Below are positions 1,637 through 12,558 of a stretch of DNA of 12,558 bases, piece after piece (the first letter of the stretch is position 1; each line of letters starts with the position of its first letter). Below the pieces are notes generated by a model. It did no database searches and was not told where the DNA came from. It saw only the letters and a program-made list of their open reading frames with translations. The position numbers were made by a program, and so were the translations under genes. Source of the DNA: a virus; UHGV virus genome UHGV-1300782. One strand, given 5' to 3'.

Positions 1637-2452
1637 ATGAGCAGACATGCAACAGATTGGGCCTGGGAGACAGATCCAGGTAGCTCGTCATTAAAGCTCA
1701 TACTGCTCTCGATGGCTGACAGAGCCGATGAATATAACCTCTGCTACCCCAGCATAGAACGCCTCGTTAAAGACACTTGCCTGAATAAAAAAACCGTGCA
1801 GGCCGGGCTTATATCGCTCATGAAAATGGGGCTTATTTCAGATACCGGAGAGAGAAAGGGAGCGACGAAAAGAGTGCGGGTTTTCTCTCTTAATATAACC
1901 AAAAACGGGAACATTAAAGGCAACCGGGAAGGGGGTAATGAACCCGAAAACGGTAATGTTACCGAAAACGGGAATATACCCAAAAACGGGATGTTGAATG
2001 ATCCCAAAAACGGGATGTTGAATGATCCCAAAAACGGGATCCAGAACCAGTCATATAACCAGTCATTTAACCAAGAGAGGGAGAGCAGGACAAAAACCGG
2101 GGATTCTGTTCCTCATGACCCCGGCGCAAACAACGCCGTGATGAATAACTTTGTTCCTCCTGGTGGGCCAGGGCAATTAGGCAAATTTGTCATGCATGAA
2201 CAATGGCAGCCATCAGATGACTTTCTTCGGAAAAGCTCATTGCAGGGGATCTACCTGGACAGTCTGCCAACGGCACAGGAACTTGCAGAGTTCAGAATTT
2301 ACTGGATGGCTGAGGGTAAGGCATACCATCAGGCACAGTGGGAGCAGAAGCTGGCAAGGCGGCTGCAGATTAGCAGACAGAAGCAATCAACATTACCTGA
2401 TAACAACGTTCCGCACTGGAACAGCCCTGAAGCGTGGGAGGATTTCTTGTGA
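1637..2452 (+). CDS. Replication initiator (lambda O-like role), N-terminal winged-helix replication-protein domain, iterons embedded in the coding sequence
   Basis: GGAG 7 nt before ATG 1637. N-terminus LKLILLSMADRADEYNLCYPSIERLVKDTCLNKKTVQAGLISLMKMGLI matches the HTH pattern I associate with phage replication initiators. The central region is low-complexity (PKNGMLNDPKNGMLNDPKNG) because it is encoded by the iterons. Stop overlaps the next gene's start (GTGA). Confidence 0.7.
   Translation: MSRHATDWAWETDPGSSSLKLILLSMADRADEYNLCYPSIERLVKDTCLNKKTVQAGLISLMKMGLISDTGERKGATKRVRVFSLNITKNGNIKGNREGGNEPENGNVTENGNIPKNGMLNDPKNGMLNDPKNGIQNQSYNQSFNQERESRTKTGDSVPHDPGANNAVMNNFVPPGGPGQLGKFVMHEQWQPSDDFLRKSSLQGIYLDSLPTAQELAEFRIYWMAEGKAYHQAQWEQKLARRLQISRQKQSTLPDNNVPHWNSPEAWEDFL
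1898..2041. repeat. Iteron array, probable origin of replication
   Basis: Six copies of CC(A/G)AAAACGG(G/T)A at about 1898, 1943, 1961, 1978, 2002 and 2026. The last three sit in an exact 24-bp tandem CCCAAAAACGGGATGTTGAATGAT (1979-2002, 2003-2026, partial third to 2041). Followed by a short direct repeat CCAGTCAT (2049-2056, 2063-2070). Confidence 0.75.
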
Positions 2453-4860: not shown

Positions 4861-5156
4861 CTGTATGTCTTATTGATAAACGTCGACGTGGGCAACAAAT
4901 ACCATCTGTTGAAATGCCGAATCACACATGGTTTTGCGTACTTGATATCGATGGTATGGATACGTTGGTTGACACTCGTCATTACTGCGATACCGCAACA
5001 GCTACTCCGGCGAAAGCAAAGAAAATGGCTGCTCTGATAGAAAACTGGACTCCACCTGATGGTTGGTGCAATGGGAATGATCGAGATTGGCACGAAAAAA
5101 TGAAGGGCTATATCTGCGATTTTTTACGTAAATGCAACGGCTTCAGGGTGATGTGA
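4857..5156 (+). CDS. Hypothetical protein (99 aa), Cys/Trp-rich
   Basis: GAAGGTGG 4-5 nt before ATG 4857, translationally coupled to the upstream gene; stop TGA 5154-5156 is followed one base later by the next ATG. Confidence 0.6.
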   Translation: MTVCLIDKRRRGQQIPSVEMPNHTWFCVLDIDGMDTLVDTRHYCDTATATPAKAKKMAALIENWTPPDGWCNGNDRDWHEKMKGYICDFLRKCNGFRVM

Positions 5157-5157
5157 C

Positions 5158-5442
5158 ATGAGCAAGATTGACTATCAGGCACTGCGTGAAAAGGCAGAGA
5201 AAGCAACGTGTGGTGTGTGGTCGCTCGAATATGGAGAGGGCCGATTTGATGGTGATGATGCACTAATTCATCGCGAGGCTGCTGGGTATATTCCCATTTG
5301 CAGAATTGAAGGAGCGCATCCAGAAAGCGGTTTCGATGAAGATTTCCAAATGGATTCGAAAGAATGCATTGACGTAATTCGTGAAGAAGTAAAGCGATGG
5401 AATGATTCCCGCGCCGCTGGTATTCGCATCAAAGGAGAGTGA
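5158..5442 (+). CDS. Ead/Ea22-like family protein (tentative)
   Basis: AGGGTGA 6 nt before ATG 5158. N-terminus ALREKAEKATCGVW resembles the LRELAEKATPGPW-type motif I associate with Ead/Ea22-like prophage proteins. Confidence 0.5.
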   Translation: MSKIDYQALREKAEKATCGVWSLEYGEGRFDGDDALIHREAAGYIPICRIEGAHPESGFDEDFQMDSKECIDVIREEVKRWNDSRAAGIRIKGE

Positions 5443-6390: not shown

Positions 6391-6664
6391 CCTGCAACTT
6401 GCCGTCAAAGGTGAATACTTCGATGCCATGATTCGCGGAGATAAAACGGAAGAGTATCGCCTGTGTAATGACTACTGGGAAAAGCGAATTATGTTCCGGG
6501 AATATGACCGCCTGATTATCACAAAGGGATATCCGAAGCGTGACGATTCCAGCCGCAGAATTGACGTTCCGTATGGCGGCTATGAAATCAAGACAATCAC
6601 ACATCCGCACTTCGGCGATAAACCGGTAAAGGTATACGCGATAAAGGTAAATATTGATGGCTAA
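6383..6664 (+). CDS. ASCH/PUA-like small protein (tentative)
   Basis: AGGAGG (6371-6376) 6 nt before GTG 6383, overlapping the upstream stop. N-terminus LAVKGEYFDAMIRGDKTEEYRL matches the ASCH-type pattern (I..I.....GKKT.E.R). Confidence 0.5.
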   Translation: MANLQLAVKGEYFDAMIRGDKTEEYRLCNDYWEKRIMFREYDRLIITKGYPKRDDSSRRIDVPYGGYEIKTITHPHFGDKPVKVYAIKVNIDG

Positions 6665-6995
6665 ATCAGCAGCAGAGCGCAAAGCCGCTCAGAGAGCCAG
6701 ACAAGCTGCATCTGGTGTACGTAAGCTGGAGATTGTGCTTGATGCTCAGGAAATTGAAATGCTGGAGCGTAACTGTGCCACACGTCGCCCCGGGCGTGCG
6801 CCTTACGAATTTGGTGAGTATATAGCGTTACTGATCCGCCAGGATGATGCACGCGTGCGCGGGCGTATAAAATCGATCAGCAGAAAACGTTGCGGTAAGT
6901 GCGGCGAGAGAGTTCCTGTGAATTCATGCCCGTGTAATGGTGACTCGCAATGCTGGGTAACCAAAGGCTGGCATGAAACGAAATTAATAGTGTGA
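6657..6995 (+). CDS. Basic protein with a C-terminal Cys cluster (CGKCGERVPVNSCPC), candidate zinc-binding regulator
   Basis: AAGGT 8 nt before ATG 6657; basic helical N-terminus AERKAAQRARQAASGVRKLEIVL; Cys cluster C-x2-C-x9-C-x-C. Last gene before the terminase operon. Function inferred from composition only. Confidence 0.5.
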   Translation: MAKSAAERKAAQRARQAASGVRKLEIVLDAQEIEMLERNCATRRPGRAPYEFGEYIALLIRQDDARVRGRIKSISRKRCGKCGERVPVNSCPCNGDSQCWVTKGWHETKLIV

Positions 6996-7003
6996 CATGT
7001 CAC
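6991..7003. repeat. Palindrome TGTGACATGTCAC, copy 1
   Basis: The 13-mer recurs exactly at 9442-9454; the 12-bp core GTGACATGTCAC is a perfect palindrome. It spans the stop of the 6657-6995 gene. Confidence 0.7.
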
Positions 7004-7012
7004 GAAGGTGTT

Positions 7013-7225
7013 ATGCCAAAAATACGCTACGACCTTGAAGATATGAGAGATAACTCAGCAAATTTTCCGAAAGAGGTTAAATTTCTCATGCATAAGTATG
7101 GTTGCGCCAGGAGGGATATAGTTATCGACAGTCAGCACCCTTGCGGCGAGGATGTAATTTTCATTCGCGGTAAATGGGAAGGGTATCTTGACGAGAGTTT
7201 TTACGATGAATTTGATGGACTTTGA
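7013..7225 (+). CDS. Hypothetical small protein (70 aa)
   Basis: ATG 7013 preceded by GAAGGTG; the ORF track's GTG at 6992 is in frame and cannot be excluded. Stop at 7223-7225 is followed by a terminator. Confidence 0.5.
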   Translation: MPKIRYDLEDMRDNSANFPKEVKFLMHKYGCARRDIVIDSQHPCGEDVIFIRGKWEGYLDESFYDEFDGL

Positions 7226-7230
7226 ATACT

Positions 7231-7257
7231 GCCGCCAACTATGGCGGCTTTATTTTG
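7231..7257 (+). terminator. Intrinsic terminator between accessory block and terminase genes
   Basis: Hairpin GCCGCCA-acta-TGGCGGC (7231-7248) followed by TTTATTTTG (7249-7257). Confidence 0.7.
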
Positions 7258-7260
7258 CAT

Positions 7261-7292
7261 GGTACTATTACCACAACGGTAACTATTACCAC
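7261..7292. repeat. Direct repeat GGTA(A)CTATTACCAC x2 upstream of terS
   Basis: Exact 10-mer CTATTACCAC at 7265-7274 and 7283-7292. Each copy forms an inverted-order palindrome of the operator half-sites (GGTA-CTAT-TACC at 7261-7272; GGTAA-CTA-TTACC at 7278-7290). Confidence 0.65.
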
Positions 7293-7302
7293 GGTGGTTA
7301 TG

Positions 7303-7896
7303 ATGCCTGCTGAACCTAAAACCTATAAACGCAAATCAACGCAATTTAAGCCACTAACAGCAATGCAGGAGGCTTATTGCCAGTCATACATCAAAACGCC
7401 TGAAAACCAGACTCAGGCAGCGATTAACGCAGGATTCTCCCCAAATACAGCGGCAGTTAAAGCCAGTGTCATGATGCGCGATGAACGCATTCAAAAACGG
7501 ATTGCCGAGCTGATGGAAGAGCGCAACAAACGAATGCGCGTCAGTGCTGATTACGTTCTCATGCGCCTGGTGGAGATCGACCAGATGGACGTGATCGACA
7601 TCCTCAACGACGATGGGAGCCTTAAGCCAATCCGCGAGTGGCCGAAAATCTGGCGCACTACGCTTAGCGGCTTTGATCTGTCATCGACCATCATGAACAT
7701 GAACGAGGATTCGATAGAGACAATCCTCAAAAAAATTAAATGGCCTGACAAGGTGAAGAACCTCGAACTGATTGGTAAGCACGTCGACGTCAACGCATTC
7801 AAAGAACGCCTGGATGTTAATGTGAATGTGACAATTGCTGATCGCATAGCAGCAGCCAGGAAGCGACTCAAAGAACGTCAGGATGGTAATCAGTGA
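7303..7896 (+). CDS. terS: Terminase small subunit (Terminase_2-type)
   Basis: Segment LTAMQEAYCQSYIKTPENQTQAAINAGFSPNTAAVKASVMMRDERIQKRIAELM matches the small-terminase pattern (LT..QE.FC.EY ... QAAI.AGYS). Start placed at ATG 7303 (or 7300) after GGTGG; the TTG 7222 extension in the ORF track reads through the terminator and repeats. Stop overlaps the terL start (GTGA). Confidence 0.7.
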   Translation: MPAEPKTYKRKSTQFKPLTAMQEAYCQSYIKTPENQTQAAINAGFSPNTAAVKASVMMRDERIQKRIAELMEERNKRMRVSADYVLMRLVEIDQMDVIDILNDDGSLKPIREWPKIWRTTLSGFDLSSTIMNMNEDSIETILKKIKWPDKVKNLELIGKHVDVNAFKERLDVNVNVTIADRIAAARKRLKERQDGNQ

Positions 7897-9368
7897 CAGA
7901 TACAGCGTTATCTCCTGAAGAGCAGTTGATCGAGGATATTGCAGGGTTCACTCACGATCCGCTTGGCTATGCTCTCTATGCGTTCCCGTGGGGGGAAGAG
8001 GGGACTGAACTGGCACATGCTACCGGCCCACGTCAATGGCAGGCTGATGCGTTCCGAGAGATACGTGATCACCTGCAGAATCCAGAGACGCGCTATCAGC
8101 CGCTTATGCTGGCACGCGCTTCTGGTCACGGTATTGGTAAATCCGCATTTATCTCAATGCTGATCAACTGGGGCATGTCCACTTGCGAGGATTGTAAGGT
8201 CGTGGTGACCGCCAACACCGACAACCAGCTACGAACGAAGACCTGGCCGGAAATTATCAAGTGGTCAAACCTTGCTATCACGAAAGACTGGTTTACCTGT
8301 ACCGCTACCGCGATGTACAGCAATGACCCTGGGCACGACAAGCGGTGGCGAGCTGACGCAATCCCCTGGTCTGAGCACAACACTGAGGCATTCGCCGGAC
8401 TACACAACGAGCGCAAACGCATCATCGTGGTATTCGATGAAGCGTCGAATATTGCCGATCTTGTGTGGGAGGTAGCAGAGGGTGCGCTGACGGACGAAGA
8501 CACCGAAATCATCTGGGTGGCGTTCGGGAACCCGACGCGTAACACCGGGCGTTTCCGTGAATGTTTCCGCAAGTACAAACACCGCTGGAAGTGTGCGCAG
8601 ATTGACAGCCGGACGGTGGAAGGCACTAACAAACAGCAGTTGCAGAAATGGGTTGATGACTACGGGGAAGACAGCGACTTCGTTAAAATCCGTGTGCGCG
8701 GCATATTCCCTGATGCATCTGAATTGCAGTTTATCCCTACCGGTCTTACTGATGAGGCAATGAAACGGGTGGTAACCGCTGCGCAGGTTGCACATGCTCC
8801 GGTGATAATCGGCGTTGACCCGGCATACTCAGGCGTTGATGACGCGGTGATATACCTGCGGCAGGGGCTGCACAGTAAGGTGCTGTGGACTGGCAACAAG
8901 ACTACTGACGATCTGATTATGGCGAAGCGTATCGCTGACTTTGAAGACCAGTACCAGGCTGACGCAGTGTTCATCGACTTCGGTTACGGAACTGGTCTGA
9001 AGTCAATCGGTGACGGCTGGGGTCGTACATGGCAACTTGTTCCGTTCGGTGGCGCGTCTACTGACCCGCAGATGCTCAATAAGCGCGGGGAGATGTTCAA
9101 CTCATGCAAGACATGGCTGAGGCTGGGCGGCATGCTGGATGACCAGGAAACAGCGGACGACCTGTCGGCGGCAGAGTACAAAGTTCGAGTGGACGGTAAA
9201 ATCGTTATCGAACCGAAGGAAGATATCAAGGAGCGGCTTGGGCGCTCGCCGGGTAAAGGCGATGCGCTACTGCTGACGTTTGCTTTCCCTGTGTCGAAGC
9301 GTCTGCGAATTCCCGGGCAGCAGAACCAGCAAGGCAAGGCCATCACAGATTACGATCCCTATGATTAA
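7893..9368 (+). CDS. terL: Terminase large subunit
   Basis: 491 codons; AGGATGG 6 nt before GTG 7893. Walker A-like ARASGHGIGKSAF, Walker B-like IIVVFDEAS, acidic nuclease-type motif VIIGVDPAYSGVDDAV. Size and position after terS fit. Confidence 0.85.
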   Translation: MTDTALSPEEQLIEDIAGFTHDPLGYALYAFPWGEEGTELAHATGPRQWQADAFREIRDHLQNPETRYQPLMLARASGHGIGKSAFISMLINWGMSTCEDCKVVVTANTDNQLRTKTWPEIIKWSNLAITKDWFTCTATAMYSNDPGHDKRWRADAIPWSEHNTEAFAGLHNERKRIIVVFDEASNIADLVWEVAEGALTDEDTEIIWVAFGNPTRNTGRFRECFRKYKHRWKCAQIDSRTVEGTNKQQLQKWVDDYGEDSDFVKIRVRGIFPDASELQFIPTGLTDEAMKRVVTAAQVAHAPVIIGVDPAYSGVDDAVIYLRQGLHSKVLWTGNKTTDDLIMAKRIADFEDQYQADAVFIDFGYGTGLKSIGDGWGRTWQLVPFGGASTDPQMLNKRGEMFNSCKTWLRLGGMLDDQETADDLSAAEYKVRVDGKIVIEPKEDIKERLGRSPGKGDALLLTFAFPVSKRLRIPGQQNQQGKAITDYDPYD

Positions 9369-9418
9369 TCCGCTGGTGGGGATAATGTCGTTGATATCCT
9401 CTGATGAGGATAAAACAA

Positions 9419-9445
9419 AGCCAGCTCATCGGCTGGCTGTTTGTG
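9419..9445. terminator. Bidirectional terminator between convergent terL and the reverse-strand gene
   Basis: Hairpin AGCCAGC-tcatcg-GCTGGCT (9419-9438) with TGTTTGTG downstream on the plus strand and an A-run upstream (T-rich on the minus strand). Confidence 0.5.
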
Positions 9446-9455
9446 ACATGTCACA
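9442..9455. repeat. Palindrome TGTGACATGTCACA, copy 2
   Basis: Perfect 14-bp palindrome; the 13-mer is identical to 6991-7003. Sits between the terL stop and the reverse-strand gene. Confidence 0.7.
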
Positions 9456-9458
9456 GAG

Positions 9459-9866
9459 CTAGAAAATAATTTCATCAAATGCAGCATTTATTGCCTTTGC
9501 TTCGCTAATGGCGCCTTGTTTATCGACAATAGCTTTTTTACCAAGCACCTCGGCAAGGCACTGTAGCTTCATGTTGTATAAGTGTTCGCTCATGTAATCA
9601 TTATCACTTTTTGCTTTAGCGCAAACAGAGCGAGAAATATCAAACACATCGCCTTTTTCCATTTCAGAACGTTGTGCTGTTATCCAGTCATGGAACGTAA
9701 CGCTAGTACCATGGTCTTCTCTAAGAGTTAACCCGGTCAGCCCCTCACTCTGAATTACTTCGTAATGCATTTCATTACCAGCAAAAACGCCATAAAAAAT
9801 GCAGTCTTCAGCCTGAACGATACGAGAATATTTTAATGGCCATTCATTTAGATACTTAGCCAACAT
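9459..9866 (-). CDS. Hypothetical protein (135 aa), reverse-oriented AT-rich insert gene (moron candidate)
   Basis: Minus-strand ORF. Start placed at ATG 9866-9864 (MLAKYLNEWPLKY...) because the longer TTG-initiated version (9929) translates the upstream terminator hairpin. No good SD. My hand count over 9461-9640 gives about 37-42% GC against about 48% in a terL sample (8401-8460). No predicted membrane segment by eye; no family recognised. Confidence 0.5.
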   Translation of the reverse strand: MLAKYLNEWPLKYSRIVQAEDCIFYGVFAGNEMHYEVIQSEGLTGLTLREDHGTSVTFHDWITAQRSEMEKGDVFDISRSVCAKAKSDNDYMSEHLYNMKLQCLAEVLGKKAIVDKQGAISEAKAINAAFDEIIF

Positions 9867-9891
9867 ATCAATTGTCTTGATAATCTCACCT

Positions 9892-9916
9892 AAAAAAAAT
9901 GCCCGGCGAACCGGGC
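9892..9916 (-). terminator. Strong intrinsic terminator immediately upstream of the reverse-strand gene
   Basis: Minus strand reads GCCCGG-TTCG-CCGGGC-A-TTTTTTTT (plus 9916 down to 9892): 6-bp GC stem, UUCG tetraloop, U8 tract. Ends about 25 nt before the ATG at 9866. Confidence 0.75.
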
Positions 9917-9993
9917 GAACTGGAAGCAATGAGTTATGCCTTCCGTGGCTGTACTGGTTTACAGCATGAAGTCATCGCAATGGCGTCCTGCTG

Positions 9994-10080: not shown

Positions 10081-10157
10081 TGGCGTGGCATGCAGGATTC
10101 GAACCTGCGACCAACCGCTTAGAAGGCGGTTGCTCTGTCCAGCTGAGCTAATGCCAC
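10081..10157 (-). tRNA. tRNA-Arg (anticodon UCU)
   Basis: The reverse complement folds by hand into a 77-nt cloverleaf: acceptor GTGGCAT/ATGCCAC, D-stem GCTC/GAGC, anticodon stem ACCGC/GCGGT with loop CTTCTAA (anticodon TCT), variable loop TGGTC, T-arm GCAGG-TTCGAAT-CCTGC, discriminator G, encoded CCA. Confidence 0.85.
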
Positions 10158-10805: not shown

Positions 10806-12470
10806 ATGGCGGAAACAACTAAAGAGCGATTGAACAAACAGTTCGCACAACTTGAAAGCGAGCGTCAGTCGTTCGAGCCGCACTGGCGCGAGTTGAGTGA
10901 TTACATCAACCCGCGTGGTTCCCGCTTTCTGACTTCTGAGGTCAACCGTAACGATCGACGCAATACACGCATTATTGATTCGACCGGGACTATGGCGGCG
11001 CGCACTCTCGCCAGCGGCATGATGTCAGGCATCACAAGCCCCGCGCGTCCGTGGTTTCGCCTGGCTACGCCAGATCCTGAAATGATGGATTATGGCCCTG
11101 TTAAGTTGTGGCTTGAGGCGGTGCAGAACCGCATGAACGATATGTTCAATAAGTCGAATCTCTATCAGTCGCTGCCGCAGTTATACGGAAGCCTCGGCAC
11201 ATACAGCACTGGTGCAATGGCAGTGCTGGAGGATGACGAGGACATCATTCGCACAATGCCATTCCCGATAGGAAGTTACTACCTGGCTAACTCACCTCGT
11301 GGCAGTGTGGACACCTGTTTTCGCAAGTTCTCTATGACTGTTCGTCAGCTTGTTCAGGAGTTCGGGCTAAATAACGTCAGCGAATCCGTAAAAAGCATGT
11401 GGGAAAGCGGCACCTACGAGAAGTGGATTGAAGTGATGCATTCGGTTTACCCGAACATTGACCGCGATACATCGAAGCTGGATAGCAAGAACAAGCCATT
11501 CAAATCGGTTTATTACGAGGTTGGTGGCGATAACGACAAGTTGTTGCGTGAGTCCGGATTCGATGAGTTTCCAATTATGGCTCCGCGCTGGGAAGTTAAC
11601 GGCGAAGATGTTTATGGATCATCATGCCCGGGTATGCTGGCGCTTGGACCTGTTAAGGCATTGCAGCTTCTCCAGAAGCGCAAGTCGCAGTTGATTGATA
11701 AAGCCACCAATCCGCCGATGGTTGCTCCGACTTCCCTCAAGAATCAGCGCGCCTCCCTTCTTCCTGGCGACATCACGTATATCGATCAGATTACTGGTCA
11801 TGATGGTTTCAGGCCTGCTTATCTGGTTAACCCCAGTACAGCAGATTTGGTGGCAGACATTCAGGACACTCGTCAAATCATTAACAGCGCCTACTTTGTC
11901 GATCTGTTCATGATGTTGCAGAACATCAATACCCGCTCGATGCCTGTTGAAGCGGTGATCGAAATGAAAGAAGAAAAACTTCTGATGTTGGGGCCGGTTC
12001 TGGAGCGTCTGAACGACGAATGTCTTAATCCTCTCATTGACCGCGCTTTCTCGATGATGGTGCGTAAAAACATGCTGCCGCCACCGCCTGACGCGATGGA
12101 AGGTATGCCCCTGAAGGTCGAATACATTTCCGTCATGGCTCAGGCGCAGAAGTCTATCGGCCTGTCCAGTCTGGCGTCTACGGTCAACTTCATTGGTCAA
12201 CTTGCGCAAGCGAAACCAGAAGCTCTCGACAAACTCAACGTTGATCAGGCGATCGATGCATTCGCTGATATGTCCGGAGTGTCTCCAACCGTCATTGTTC
12301 CGCAGGAACAGGTTGAGCAGGCTCGCCAGCAACGGGCACAGCAACAACAGCAGCAACAAATGATGGAGATGGGGATGGCGGCGGCACAGGGTGCCAAGAC
12401 GCTAAGCGAAGCTAAAACTTCGGATCCGAGTGTTTTGTCAGCTATGGCGAATGCAGTTAGTGGTCGCTGA
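10806..12470 (+). CDS. Portal (head-to-tail connector) protein, T7-type family
   Basis: 554 codons; GGAG 9 nt before ATG 10806. N-terminal pattern (ERQSFEPHWRELSDYINP ... ARPWFRLATP) and the Gln/Met-rich C-terminus (QQQQQQQMMEMGMAAAQGA) parallel the T7 gp8 connector as I recall it. Confidence 0.8.
   Translation: MAETTKERLNKQFAQLESERQSFEPHWRELSDYINPRGSRFLTSEVNRNDRRNTRIIDSTGTMAARTLASGMMSGITSPARPWFRLATPDPEMMDYGPVKLWLEAVQNRMNDMFNKSNLYQSLPQLYGSLGTYSTGAMAVLEDDEDIIRTMPFPIGSYYLANSPRGSVDTCFRKFSMTVRQLVQEFGLNNVSESVKSMWESGTYEKWIEVMHSVYPNIDRDTSKLDSKNKPFKSVYYEVGGDNDKLLRESGFDEFPIMAPRWEVNGEDVYGSSCPGMLALGPVKALQLLQKRKSQLIDKATNPPMVAPTSLKNQRASLLPGDITYIDQITGHDGFRPAYLVNPSTADLVADIQDTRQIINSAYFVDLFMMLQNINTRSMPVEAVIEMKEEKLLMLGPVLERLNDECLNPLIDRAFSMMVRKNMLPPPPDAMEGMPLKVEYISVMAQAQKSIGLSSLASTVNFIGQLAQAKPEALDKLNVDQAIDAFADMSGVSPTVIVPQEQVEQARQQRAQQQQQQQMMEMGMAAAQGAKTLSEAKTSDPSVLSAMANAVSGR
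12262..12356 (+). repeat. Direct repeat, copy 1 (inside portal coding sequence)
   Basis: 95 bp, 94/95 identical to 12464-12558 (offset 202 bp); the single mismatch is C at 12301 versus T at 12503. Confidence 0.85.
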
Positions 12471-12558
12471 TATGTCCGGAGTGTCTCCAACCGTCATTGT
12501 TCTGCAGGAACAGGTTGAGCAGGCTCGCCAGCAACGGGCACAGCAACAACAGCAGCAA
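12464..12558 (+). repeat. Direct repeat, copy 2 (spans the portal stop codon, truncated by window end)
   Basis: Copy of 12262-12356. It contains the portal stop TGA (12468-12470) and an ATG at 12472 that opens a frame re-encoding MSGVSPTVIVLQEQVEQARQQRAQQQQQQ to the window edge. Confidence 0.85.

What the first reader, a model, noticed from the sequence alone, without database searches (positions are those of the whole stretch)
6991..9455. Identical palindromes TGTGACATGTCAC bracket the terminase module
The 13-mer occurs exactly twice, at 6991-7003 (end of the Cys-cluster gene, start of the terminase-side genes) and at 9442-9454 (just after the terL stop); a partial copy TGTGACATG sits at another gene junction (5153-5161). 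Chance recurrence of a 13-mer in 12.6 kb is negligible. The pair delimits a 2.45-kb segment containing a small ORF, terS and terL. It could be a binding site for a late regulator (the adjacent Cys-cluster protein is an obvious candidate), a packaging-related site, or the scar of modular recombination.
Basis: partly seen in the sequence, partly recalled or inferred. Interest (0 to 1): 0.6.

Follow-up and report, generated by a model that had tools for sequence, protein, structure and literature searches.

The report
Phage protein's conserved palindromic binding site
The two identical palindromes are real: they are copies of a 12-14 bp DNA site that travels, across several unrelated groups of temperate phages, with the small uncharacterised DNA-binding protein encoded next to copy 1, and they mark gene and operon ends rather than the terminase module.

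Summary
Confirmed. GTGACATGTCAC lies at 6992-7003 and 9443-9454. Copy 2 is a perfect 14-mer, TGTGACATGTCACA.

The window is an epsilon15/phiV10-like (Uetakevirus) prophage. Both copies are kept in E. coli, Salmonella, Klebsiella, Citrobacter and Enterobacter relatives whose flanks differ.

Complete relatives have a third copy at the end of the structural operon. Each copy follows the order stop codon, palindrome, intrinsic terminator.

The key result is co-inheritance. GTGAC-NN-GTCAC occurs in 187 of 192 loci fetched only by similarity to the Cys-cluster protein (6657-6995). These include N15-like, P2-like and Vibrio phages with 30-40% protein identity. About 2 hits were expected by chance and 287 were found. 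Other spacer lengths gave 0-4 hits.

That protein models as a ribbon-helix-helix fold with a 4-Cys module. It has no Pfam family, no solved relative and no published function that I could find.

Best reading: the palindrome is this protein's operator-like site, and the protein acts on transcription at operon boundaries. The binding is inferred, not shown, and the downstream effect is uncertain.

The site equals the consensus matS minus one central base, so it is not matS.

The terminase bracket is incidental. Packaging-site and recombination-scar readings are not supported.

The parts
6991..7004 (.). Palindrome copy 1. The core GTGACATGTCAC is at 6992-7003. It overlaps the TGA stop of the regulator gene and lies directly upstream of the Shine-Dalgarno sequence and ATG (7013) of the small ORF.
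   Evidence: Kept at the same place in PAS61, epsilon15, 66FD, BUCT711, Omnitron, Tyrion and the MS20659 prophage. Among the 80 IMG/VR relatives, 75 have it exact, 4 have it with one mismatch and 1 locus ends before it.
9442..9455 (.). Palindrome copy 2, a perfect 14-mer TGTGACATGTCACA. It lies between the stop of the minus-strand gene (9459-9461) and the hairpin at 9419-9438.
   Evidence: Kept in most relatives, sometimes with one mismatch. Lost where the terminator and minus-strand gene have been replaced.
6657..6995 (+). Gene for the 112-aa Cys-cluster protein (PHROG 536), the proposed binder of the palindrome. Predicted layout: a basic N-terminal helix, a ribbon-helix-helix core, a long helix and a 4-Cys module (C40, C79, C82, C99).
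   Evidence: No Pfam family reaches its threshold, no PDB sequence match, and every database name is 'hypothetical protein'.
7229..7256 (+). Intrinsic terminator T1 (GCCGCCaactatGGCGGC followed by TTTATTTT), which ends the early-right operon upstream of terS.
   Evidence: The same hairpin follows copy 1 in epsilon15, PAS61, 66FD and Tyrion. It is annotated as a terminator in the epsilon15 record.
9410..9438 (-). Intrinsic terminator T2 for the minus-strand gene (AGCCAGCcgatgaGCTGGCT followed by TTGTTTTAT). On the plus strand the same hairpin follows terL but has a poor T-run.
   Evidence: Annotated as a terminator in the phiV10 record.
7013..7225 (+). Small ORF (70 aa, PHROG 1541), inserted between copy 1 and T1. 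It is present in only some relatives.
   Evidence: Absent from PAS61, phiV10 and epsilon15. The spacing between copies 1 and 2 is 2451 nt with it and 2265 nt without it.
7303..9368 (+). terS (7303-7896) and terL (7893-9368). They lie between the two copies but are not part of the element.
9459..9929 (-). Variable minus-strand cargo gene (PHROG 4846). Its 3' end carries copy 2.
   Evidence: At least seven unrelated alleles start 4-7 nt to the right of copy 2 in relatives.

Best explanation
The palindrome (consensus Y-GTGAC-AT-GTCAC-R, 14 bp) is the DNA site of the small ribbon-helix-helix/4-Cys protein encoded at 6657-6995. Copy 1 overlaps that gene's stop codon.

An epsilon15-like genome carries three copies. 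Each lies between the stop codon of the last gene of a transcription unit and an intrinsic terminator:
- the end of the early-right operon (copy 1, then T1);
- the end of the minus-strand cargo gene (copy 2, then T2);
- the end of the structural operon (third copy, outside this window).

I propose that dimers of the protein occupy these sites once the early-right operon has been expressed. There they change what RNA polymerase does at the operon boundary. Most likely the bound protein acts as an orientation-independent block that tightens termination and insulates neighbouring or convergent units.

What is shown: the presence, conservation, exact spacing, placement and co-inheritance of site and protein, and the predicted fold.

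What is inferred: that the protein binds the site (strong inference), that it binds DNA rather than RNA, and the direction of the effect on transcription (weak inference).
For: 1. Co-inheritance. Loci fetched only by similarity to the protein hold GTGAC-NN-GTCAC in:
- 79 of 80 epsilon15-like loci;
- 49 of 49 N15-like loci (spacer TG);
- 2 of 2 Vibrio loci (spacers AC, GC, CC);
- 57 of 61 P2-like loci.
The chance expectation is 0.02-0.8 hits per group. It is also present in the phage records BUCT711, Omnitron, 66FD, Chlobot, N15, K253, a Yersinia P2-like phage, ZF40 and Tyrion.

2. Spacing is exact. In 2.26 Mb of such loci there are 287 hits with a 2-nt spacer against 0-4 for spacers of 0, 1, 3, 4, 5 or 6 nt. 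The everted arrangement gave 3. Five scrambled palindromes gave 0, 0, 0, 1 and 31.

3. It is not a by-product of coding.
- In Chlobot and ZF40 the site lies 7 and 2 nt after a TAA stop.
- Further copies lie kilobases away from the gene.
- In ZF40-like phages two copies sit inside two unrelated genes.
- Flanks beyond the 14 bp are unconserved.

4. Five complete or near-complete genomes each hold three exact copies: epsilon15, Tyrion, the MS20659 prophage, N15 and ZF40.

6. Placement. 43 of 81 non-redundant sites abut an ORF end (per half-site odds ratio 3 against isolated GTGAC 5-mers, p = 1e-7). All three Uetakevirus copies precede a terminator in the direction of transcription.

7. Negative control. 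Among 120 hits to the 14-mer in one-genome-per-species bacterial contigs, the 3 that carry the protein are all Enterobacterales.
Against: - No binding experiment exists.
- Terminator adjacency is clear only in Uetakeviruses. Over all non-redundant sites it is weak: 12 of 81 against 6.7% of random positions, p = 0.012. In N15 and ZF40 two of the three copies lie inside genes.
- A block placed between a stop codon and a terminator would stall polymerase near the gene's end. This is an odd design.
- No homologous site was found in the one Aeromonas phage examined.
- IMG/VR loci within a group are close relatives. The independent evidence is therefore about six lineages, not 192 loci.
Confidence: 0.6

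Rival explanations
1. Site-directed anti-termination. The protein waits on the palindrome just upstream of each terminator, transfers to passing RNA polymerase and lets it read through. This would link the early-right operon to terS/terL and link the late units to each other.
For: The gene is the last early gene before the late region, the same position that Q occupies in lambdoid phages. The palindrome centre lies 34-38 nt upstream of the end of the T-run at two of the three sites. N15 site 28550 lies between gene 33 and a terminator that precedes genes 32-30. The C-terminal half gives weak profile hits to TraR and YbiI, which are DksA-type zinc fingers that bind RNA polymerase.
Against: The TraR similarity is not significant (E 0.2-0.5) and has no structural support. 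At T2 the palindrome precedes the terminator only for the cargo gene, so read-through there would give antisense terL RNA. N15 and ZF40 carry their own annotated Q-like genes. The epsilon15 record annotates repressor-operator-like sites upstream of each late unit, which suggests separate promoters.
Confidence: 0.15
2. DNA bridging or looping. Higher-order complexes of the protein pair distant copies, as MatP tetramers bridge matS sites or lambda CI bridges OL and OR. This would fold the genome into loops.
For: There are several copies per genome, and pairs are often 2.1-3.3 kb apart: 2265 or 2451 nt here and 2.1-3.3 kb around the cI/cro region in ZF40-like phages. MatP is among the structural matches. 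One copy always lies beside the protein's own gene, as with many nucleating DNA binders.
Against: No coiled-coil or tetramerisation module is evident in the model. Most P2-like loci show a single full copy within 6 kb. Copy 2 is dispensable in relatives.
Confidence: 0.12
3. RNA element. The transcribed palindrome forms a small hairpin in 3' untranslated regions or before the next ribosome-binding site. This would affect RNA stability, processing or translation, possibly with the protein bound to it.
For: In Uetakeviruses the sites are transcribed and lie next to terminator hairpins. In this window, N15 and Chlobot the site directly precedes the Shine-Dalgarno sequence of the next gene.
Against: The hairpin alone is weak (-2.9 kcal/mol, z -0.2 against shuffles). 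The stems never vary, so there is no covariation to support pairing. Only the two central bases vary. Ribbon-helix-helix proteins are double-stranded DNA binders (established knowledge).
Confidence: 0.06
4. Host MatP site. The palindrome is a matS-like site that recruits the host Ter-macrodomain protein MatP to phage DNA.
For: The site is the E. coli consensus matS, GTGACATTGTCAC, with one central base removed (PMC8669397).
Against: The spacer is always 2 nt and never 3: 0 hits with matS spacing in 2.26 Mb. A dimer that reads both half-sites would be out of register. True matS is absent from 500 prophages (PMC3603311). Linkage to a phage protein explains the distribution without MatP.
Confidence: 0.04
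5. Module-junction or recombination linker, or a packaging (pac) signal for the terminase.
For: An insertion/deletion (the small ORF) and at least seven cargo alleles begin within a few bases of the copies. Copy 1 is 300 nt upstream of terS. In Vibrio K253 a copy lies 30 nt upstream of terS. In P2-like phages the site lies between a cos-like GC-rich stretch and gene Q.
Against: The site is conserved at unlinked places and inside genes. Sites in N15 and ZF40 are far from the terminases. The genomes are circularly permuted (PMC5754475). Copy 2 can be lost while the terminase is kept.
Confidence: 0.03

Closest known systems
Ribbon-helix-helix repressor/operator pairs (Arc, Mnt, CopG, omega, TacA/ParD antitoxins, AmrZ)
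   Same: A small dimeric protein with a predicted ribbon-helix-helix core and a short symmetric DNA site next to its own gene. The heptad TGTCACA resembles the omega repressor heptad (A/T)ATCAC(A/T); that comparison is from memory and is only a lead.
   Different: The sites lie at 3' ends of genes and operons or inside genes, not at the promoter of the protein's own operon. The protein also carries a basic N-terminal helix and a 4-Cys module that these families lack. No Pfam RHH model reaches its threshold.
MatP / matS (E. coli Ter macrodomain)
   Different: A 2-nt spacer against 3 nt (12 bp against 13 bp). The partner is phage-encoded, has no four-helix bundle or coiled coil, and shares only 16% identity over the aligned part. 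The element is phage-borne, whereas true matS is avoided in prophages (PMC3603311).
Lambda Q with its DNA site (QBE) at PR'-tR'
   Same: The last early gene, followed by a DNA site and then a terminator in front of the late genes. The DNA site lies a few tens of bp upstream of a place where polymerase pauses.
   Different: There is no sequence or fold similarity to Q. No promoter or sigma-dependent pause element accompanies the site (and reading of the flanks). There are several sites per genome. Phages that have an annotated Q-like gene (N15, ZF40) also have this system.
P2 Ogr / P4 Delta zinc-finger late activators
   Same: A small Cys-containing phage protein and a TGT...ACA symmetric site (from memory).
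   Different: The Ogr site is TGT-N12-ACA at about -55 of late promoters. Here the site is TGT-N8-ACA at gene ends. The protein has a ribbon-helix-helix core instead. It also occurs in P2-like phages, which I expect (not checked) to have their own Ogr, in the variable region after gene A.

Membership tests
matS (MatP binding site) | Half-sites GTGAC and GTCAC in inverted orientation | tested here: met
   Consensus taken from PMC8669397 and PMC3603311.
matS (MatP binding site) | 13-bp site with a 3-nt spacer R-N-Y | tested here: not met
   The spacer is 2 nt in all 287 sites. There were 0 hits with a 3-nt spacer in 2.26 Mb.
matS (MatP binding site) | Bound by MatP and located in the chromosomal Ter macrodomain | not testable with these tools
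   The element is phage-borne, and the MS20659 prophage lies beside guaA. MatP binding would need an EMSA.
Ribbon-helix-helix (MetJ/Arc/CopG) DNA-binding proteins | Strand-helix-helix core that pairs into a dimer | tested here: met
Ribbon-helix-helix (MetJ/Arc/CopG) DNA-binding proteins | Binds a symmetric or repeated operator that overlaps a promoter it represses | tested here: inconclusive
   A symmetric site is present. No conserved -10 element accompanies it. The one good promoter-like match (9443-9470) is specific to this cargo allele.
Lambda-type Q antiterminator with QBE/qut | Q-family protein, with its DNA site inside a late promoter followed by a sigma-dependent pause | tested here: not met
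   No PHROG, Pfam or PDB similarity to Q. No promoter at the sites. N15 and ZF40 have separate annotated Q-like genes.
N/nut-type RNA antitermination site (boxB hairpin) | A stable RNA stem-loop in early transcripts, recognised by an arginine-rich peptide | tested here: not met
   The hairpin gives -2.9 kcal/mol, no better than shuffles. There is no covariation because the stems are invariant.
pac / cos packaging site | Genome ends or the first packaging cut map to the site, which lies in or beside the terminase genes | tested here: not met
   Tyrion is circularly permuted (PMC5754475). The copies in N15 (28550, 33237, 39269) and ZF40 (5125, 7622, 14944) are far from the terminases and from cos.
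TraR/DksA-type zinc finger (RNA polymerase secondary-channel binders) | C-x2-C-x17-C-x2-C finger after a long helix, with significant similarity to the family | tested here: inconclusive

The most novel reading that the evidence does not exclude
The protein and its palindromes form a previously undescribed, widely shared phage system in which a DNA-site-bound factor acts on elongating RNA polymerase at operon ends. It would be a site-specific termination or anti-termination device unrelated to N, Q, put or RfaH. A second possibility is that the near-matS sequence is not a coincidence, and the system interferes with, or borrows from, the host MatP/MukBEF chromosome-organising machinery.
Probability: 0.2. 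Interest if true: 0.8.

Novelty: new variant of a known kind. Interest (0 to 1): 0.6.

Why it matters
This region is common. It is present in 936 of 5426 complete E. coli genomes. Homologues of the protein occur in Uetakeviruses, N15-like plasmid prophages, P2-like phages, ZF40-like phages and Vibrio phages.

The protein has no family name and no known function. Linking it to a precise 14-bp site turns a 'hypothetical protein' into a testable regulator. The test is simple: three defined sites per genome and a 112-aa protein.

How epsilon15-like phages control late transcription has not, to my knowledge, been worked out. This pair is a concrete candidate for part of that control.

The site also marks the borders of variable cargo regions in two phage groups: the gene after terL in Uetakeviruses, and the variable region after gene A in P2-like phages, which I recall as the old/tin defence hotspot. 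That makes it a useful landmark for annotation.

Its one-base difference from matS is a natural experiment in half-site spacing.

Tried and rejected
- CRP or FNR site: rejected. The half-sites resemble TGTGA/TCACA, but the spacing is wrong (4 nt against 6 nt). This is from the sequence and established consensus.
- True matS: rejected on spacer length.
- Physical genome end (cos): considered because the phiV10 and Tyrion records break inside copy 1. Rejected because Tyrion is circularly permuted and the epsilon15 and SPN1S records open elsewhere.
- Promoter: the half-site GTGACA is 5/6 of a -35 hexamer, and 9443-9470 scores 10/12. But no -10 element is conserved across alleles or at copy 1.
- Duplicated terminator module: rejected. 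The three terminator hairpins differ in sequence and only the palindrome is shared.
- TraR-like domain: the weak sequence hint was not backed by structure searches.
- Reverse test from the 14-mer in IMG/VR and in bacterial genomes. It was only partly informative, because these databases are large enough for many chance 14-mer hits and the stored stretches are short. 21 of 80 viral stretches held the protein gene, against 3 of 120 bacterial stretches.
- A scan with the Aeromonas homologue found no relatives.
- Literature searches for the sequence and for a ribbon-helix-helix/zinc late regulator found nothing relevant.
Full report
**1. The observation**

TGTGACATGTCAC occurs exactly at 6991-7003 and 9442-9454 and nowhere else in the window. 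The core is a 12-bp perfect palindrome, GTGACATGTCAC. Copy 2 is a perfect 14-mer.

- Copy 1 overlaps the TGA stop of ORF 6657-6995 and directly precedes the ribosome-binding site of a 70-aa ORF.
- Copy 2 lies between the hairpin at 9419-9438 and the stop of a minus-strand ORF.

Shuffled windows contain on average 3.3 repeated 13-mers, and this window has several unrelated ones. A repeated 12-bp palindrome, however, arose in only 1 of 300 shuffles.

The 'partial copy' is at 5152-5160. It is a stop/start codon overlap with a single half-site. About 0.1 are expected by chance, and the module that carries it was found in only 5 of the 82 relatives searched. I do not count it as a site.

**2. Context**

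The window is an epsilon15/phiV10-like (Uetakevirus) prophage. Its layout here is:
- the end of the early-right operon;
- the Cys-cluster protein (PHROG 536, labelled 'transcriptional regulator');
- a small ORF, then terminator T1;
- terS and terL;
- terminator T2 and a minus-strand cargo gene;
- tRNA-Arg and the portal gene.

The same region is present in 936 of 5426 complete E. coli genomes.

**3. Conservation of the two copies**

Both copies are in the same places in these relatives:
- E. coli phage PAS61;
- phiV10, where copy 1 is split by the record ends and has one mismatch;
- Salmonella epsilon15;
- Salmonella 66FD;
- Enterobacter phage Tyrion;
- a 97%-identical E. coli prophage.

In Klebsiella BUCT711 and Citrobacter Omnitron only copy 1 was examined, and it is present.

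Overall identity with the Salmonella, Klebsiella and Enterobacter relatives is about 80%, and the sequence just outside the palindrome differs among them.

Among 80 IMG/VR relatives, copy 1 is exact in 75, has one mismatch in 4, and is off the end of 1 locus. Copy 2 is usually present, sometimes with one mismatch. It is missing where the downstream terminator and cargo gene have been replaced.

To the right of copy 2 at least seven unrelated cargo alleles begin within 4-7 nt. To the right of copy 1 the small ORF is present or absent.

**4. A third copy, and a common syntax**

Whole-genome scans show three exact copies:
- epsilon15: 39612, 2142 and 19517;
- Tyrion: 41755, 2702 and 20377;
- the E. 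coli MS20659 prophage: 20393, 22844 and 40242 in locus coordinates.

The third copy lies at the end of the long structural operon. It overlaps or directly follows the last stop codon and abuts a terminator hairpin. An example is TAG-c-GTGACATGTCAC-AGGCCGCtttcGCGGCCT-TGTTTTT.

Read in the direction of the gene it follows, every copy has the order stop codon, palindrome, intrinsic terminator. For copy 2 the relevant gene is the minus-strand cargo gene. T2 scores as a terminator only on the minus strand.

The three hairpins are unrelated in sequence, so the palindrome is not part of a duplicated terminator. In Tyrion a further gene lies between copy 2 and terL.

The terminase 'bracket' is therefore a by-product of two operon ends that happen to flank terS and terL.

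**5. The decisive result: co-inheritance with the Cys-cluster protein**

tblastn found homologues of the protein, at 30-40% identity, in phages with unrelated architectures. In almost all of them GTGAC-NN-GTCAC is present:
- N15 gp46: GTGACTGGTCAC over the stop codon.
- Chlobot, a lambda-like phage: the gene ends in TAA and the palindrome follows 7 nt later.
- Vibrio K253: two copies of GTGACACGTCAC, one about 30 nt upstream of terS.
- A Yersinia P2-like phage: one copy 3.4 kb downstream of the gene.
- Pectobacterium ZF40: 2 nt after the stop of gp22, plus two copies inside genes that flank cI/cro.

Scans of IMG/VR seeded with the protein alone gave the motif in 79/80, 49/49, 2/2 and 57/61 loci for the four clades. 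Between 0.02 and 0.8 hits were expected per clade.

In 2.26 Mb of these loci the 2-nt spacer occurs 287 times. Spacers of 0, 1, 3, 4, 5 and 6 nt occur 0, 3, 0, 0, 4 and 2 times. The everted arrangement occurs 3 times.

Each clade has its own spacer dinucleotide, while the half-sites never change. Nothing beyond Y...R at the fourteenth positions is conserved.

N15 and ZF40 also have three copies each. In ZF40-like contigs two copies are embedded in two unrelated genes, both reading C-D-M-S. This points to selection on the DNA rather than on the peptide.

As a negative control, 120 hits to the 14-mer in one-genome-per-species bacterial contigs carry the protein gene in only 3 cases, all Enterobacterales. 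These hits come from many unrelated taxa and are probably mostly chance matches.

Loci within a clade are closely related. The independent evidence is therefore about six lineages, not 192 loci. That is still far beyond chance.

**6. The protein**

It has no Pfam family above threshold, no PDB sequence relative and only 'hypothetical protein' names. An 82-sequence alignment shows invariant R8, R13, Y50, C79 and C82, and near-invariant C40 and C99.

The AlphaFold model (mean pLDDT 87.6) has these elements:
- a basic N-terminal helix;
- an extended segment at 24-29;
- helices at 30-42 and 52-74;
- a Cys knuckle;
- a final helix.

A weak profile match of the C-terminal half to TraR and YbiI (E 0.2-0.5) is only a lead.

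**7. What it is not**

- It is not matS. The published consensus is GTGACATTGTCAC, or GTGAC[AG]N[TC]GTCAC (PMC8669397, PMC3603311). The phage site is that sequence with one central base removed, and the 3-nt spacing never occurs.
- It is not a genome end. Tyrion is circularly permuted.
- It is not a convincing RNA hairpin. The fold energy is -2.9 kcal/mol, z -0.2.
- It is not a conserved promoter.

**8. Mechanism**

The best-supported step is that dimers of the ribbon-helix-helix/Cys protein bind the 14-bp site.

What follows from binding is less certain.
- For a boundary or insulator role: the Uetakevirus syntax, the general enrichment at ORF ends (43 of 81 non-redundant sites; per half-site odds ratio 3, p = 1e-7), and the orientation-free symmetry of the site.
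- For convergent junctions in particular: copy 2, the third copy, and the P2-like site between a cos-like stretch and gene Q all lie at junctions between converging genes.

Site-directed anti-termination and MatP-like bridging remain open. Across all lineages, terminator adjacency is only modestly enriched: 12 of 81 sites against 6.7% of random positions. The boundary model may therefore be specific to this lineage.

**9. Verdict**

The guess that the neighbouring protein binds the site is supported by comparative evidence. The terminase-module, packaging and scar readings are not supported.

The protein/site pair appears to be undescribed. Literature searches found nothing. It is directly testable.

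Noticed in passing
window 7264-7292: Two direct copies of ACTATTACCAC, which also form the inverted repeat TTACC-N5-GGTAA (7268-7282), lie just upstream of terS. The epsilon15 record annotates the equivalent motif as a 'repressor' binding site here, upstream of the portal operon, upstream of the tailspike gene and beside the repressor gene. This suggests each late unit has its own repressor-controlled start.
   Followed up: partly
window 1934-2073: Tandem repeats lie inside the replication gene 1637-2452: 2.6 perfect copies of a 24-mer, CCCAAAAACGGGATGTTGAATGAT, flanked by 18-mer and 12-mer arrays. They look like origin iterons.
   Followed up: no
window 12262-12356 and 12464-12558: A 95-nt direct repeat, 99% identical and 202 nt apart, lies at the 3' end of the portal gene and runs off the end of the window. 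It could be a real duplication or an assembly artefact. The annotated portal genes of relatives differ in length: 1680 nt in phiV10 and 2208 nt in PAS61.
   Followed up: no
window 10081-10157 (minus strand): A tRNA-Arg (anticodon TCT) lies between the cargo gene and the portal operon. It is also annotated in the E. coli MS20659 prophage.
   Followed up: no
window 9443-9470 (plus strand): This is the best sigma-70-like match in the region: GTGACA, 16 nt, AATAAT (10 of 12). Its -35 hexamer is the left half of copy 2, and it points antisense into the cargo gene. The -10 part exists only in this cargo allele.
   Followed up: partly
L091 8640-8720, and L149, L161, L166: In P2-like phages the full palindrome is accompanied by a one-mismatch copy (GTGACATGGCAC) 27 nt upstream and a half-site (TGTGACA) about 20 nt downstream. 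The cluster lies between a GC-rich cos-like stretch and the end of portal gene Q. Variable cargo of 0.5-4.5 kb separates it from the regulator gene.
   Followed up: partly
L087 about 5300-5350 (Klebsiella phage BUCT711): A LexA-box-like sequence, TACTGTTTAAATATACAGTA, lies directly downstream of copy 1, in front of an ORF that begins MGFPSPAADYVEQTL and looks UmuD-like by eye. In Chlobot the regulator gene follows an annotated UmuD-like gene.
   Followed up: no
L368 200-247 (Candidatus Jettenia contig): Three copies of GTGAC-NN-GTCAC lie exactly 18 nt apart in an unrelated bacterium with no regulator homologue nearby. This is probably an unrelated repeat array.
   Followed up: no
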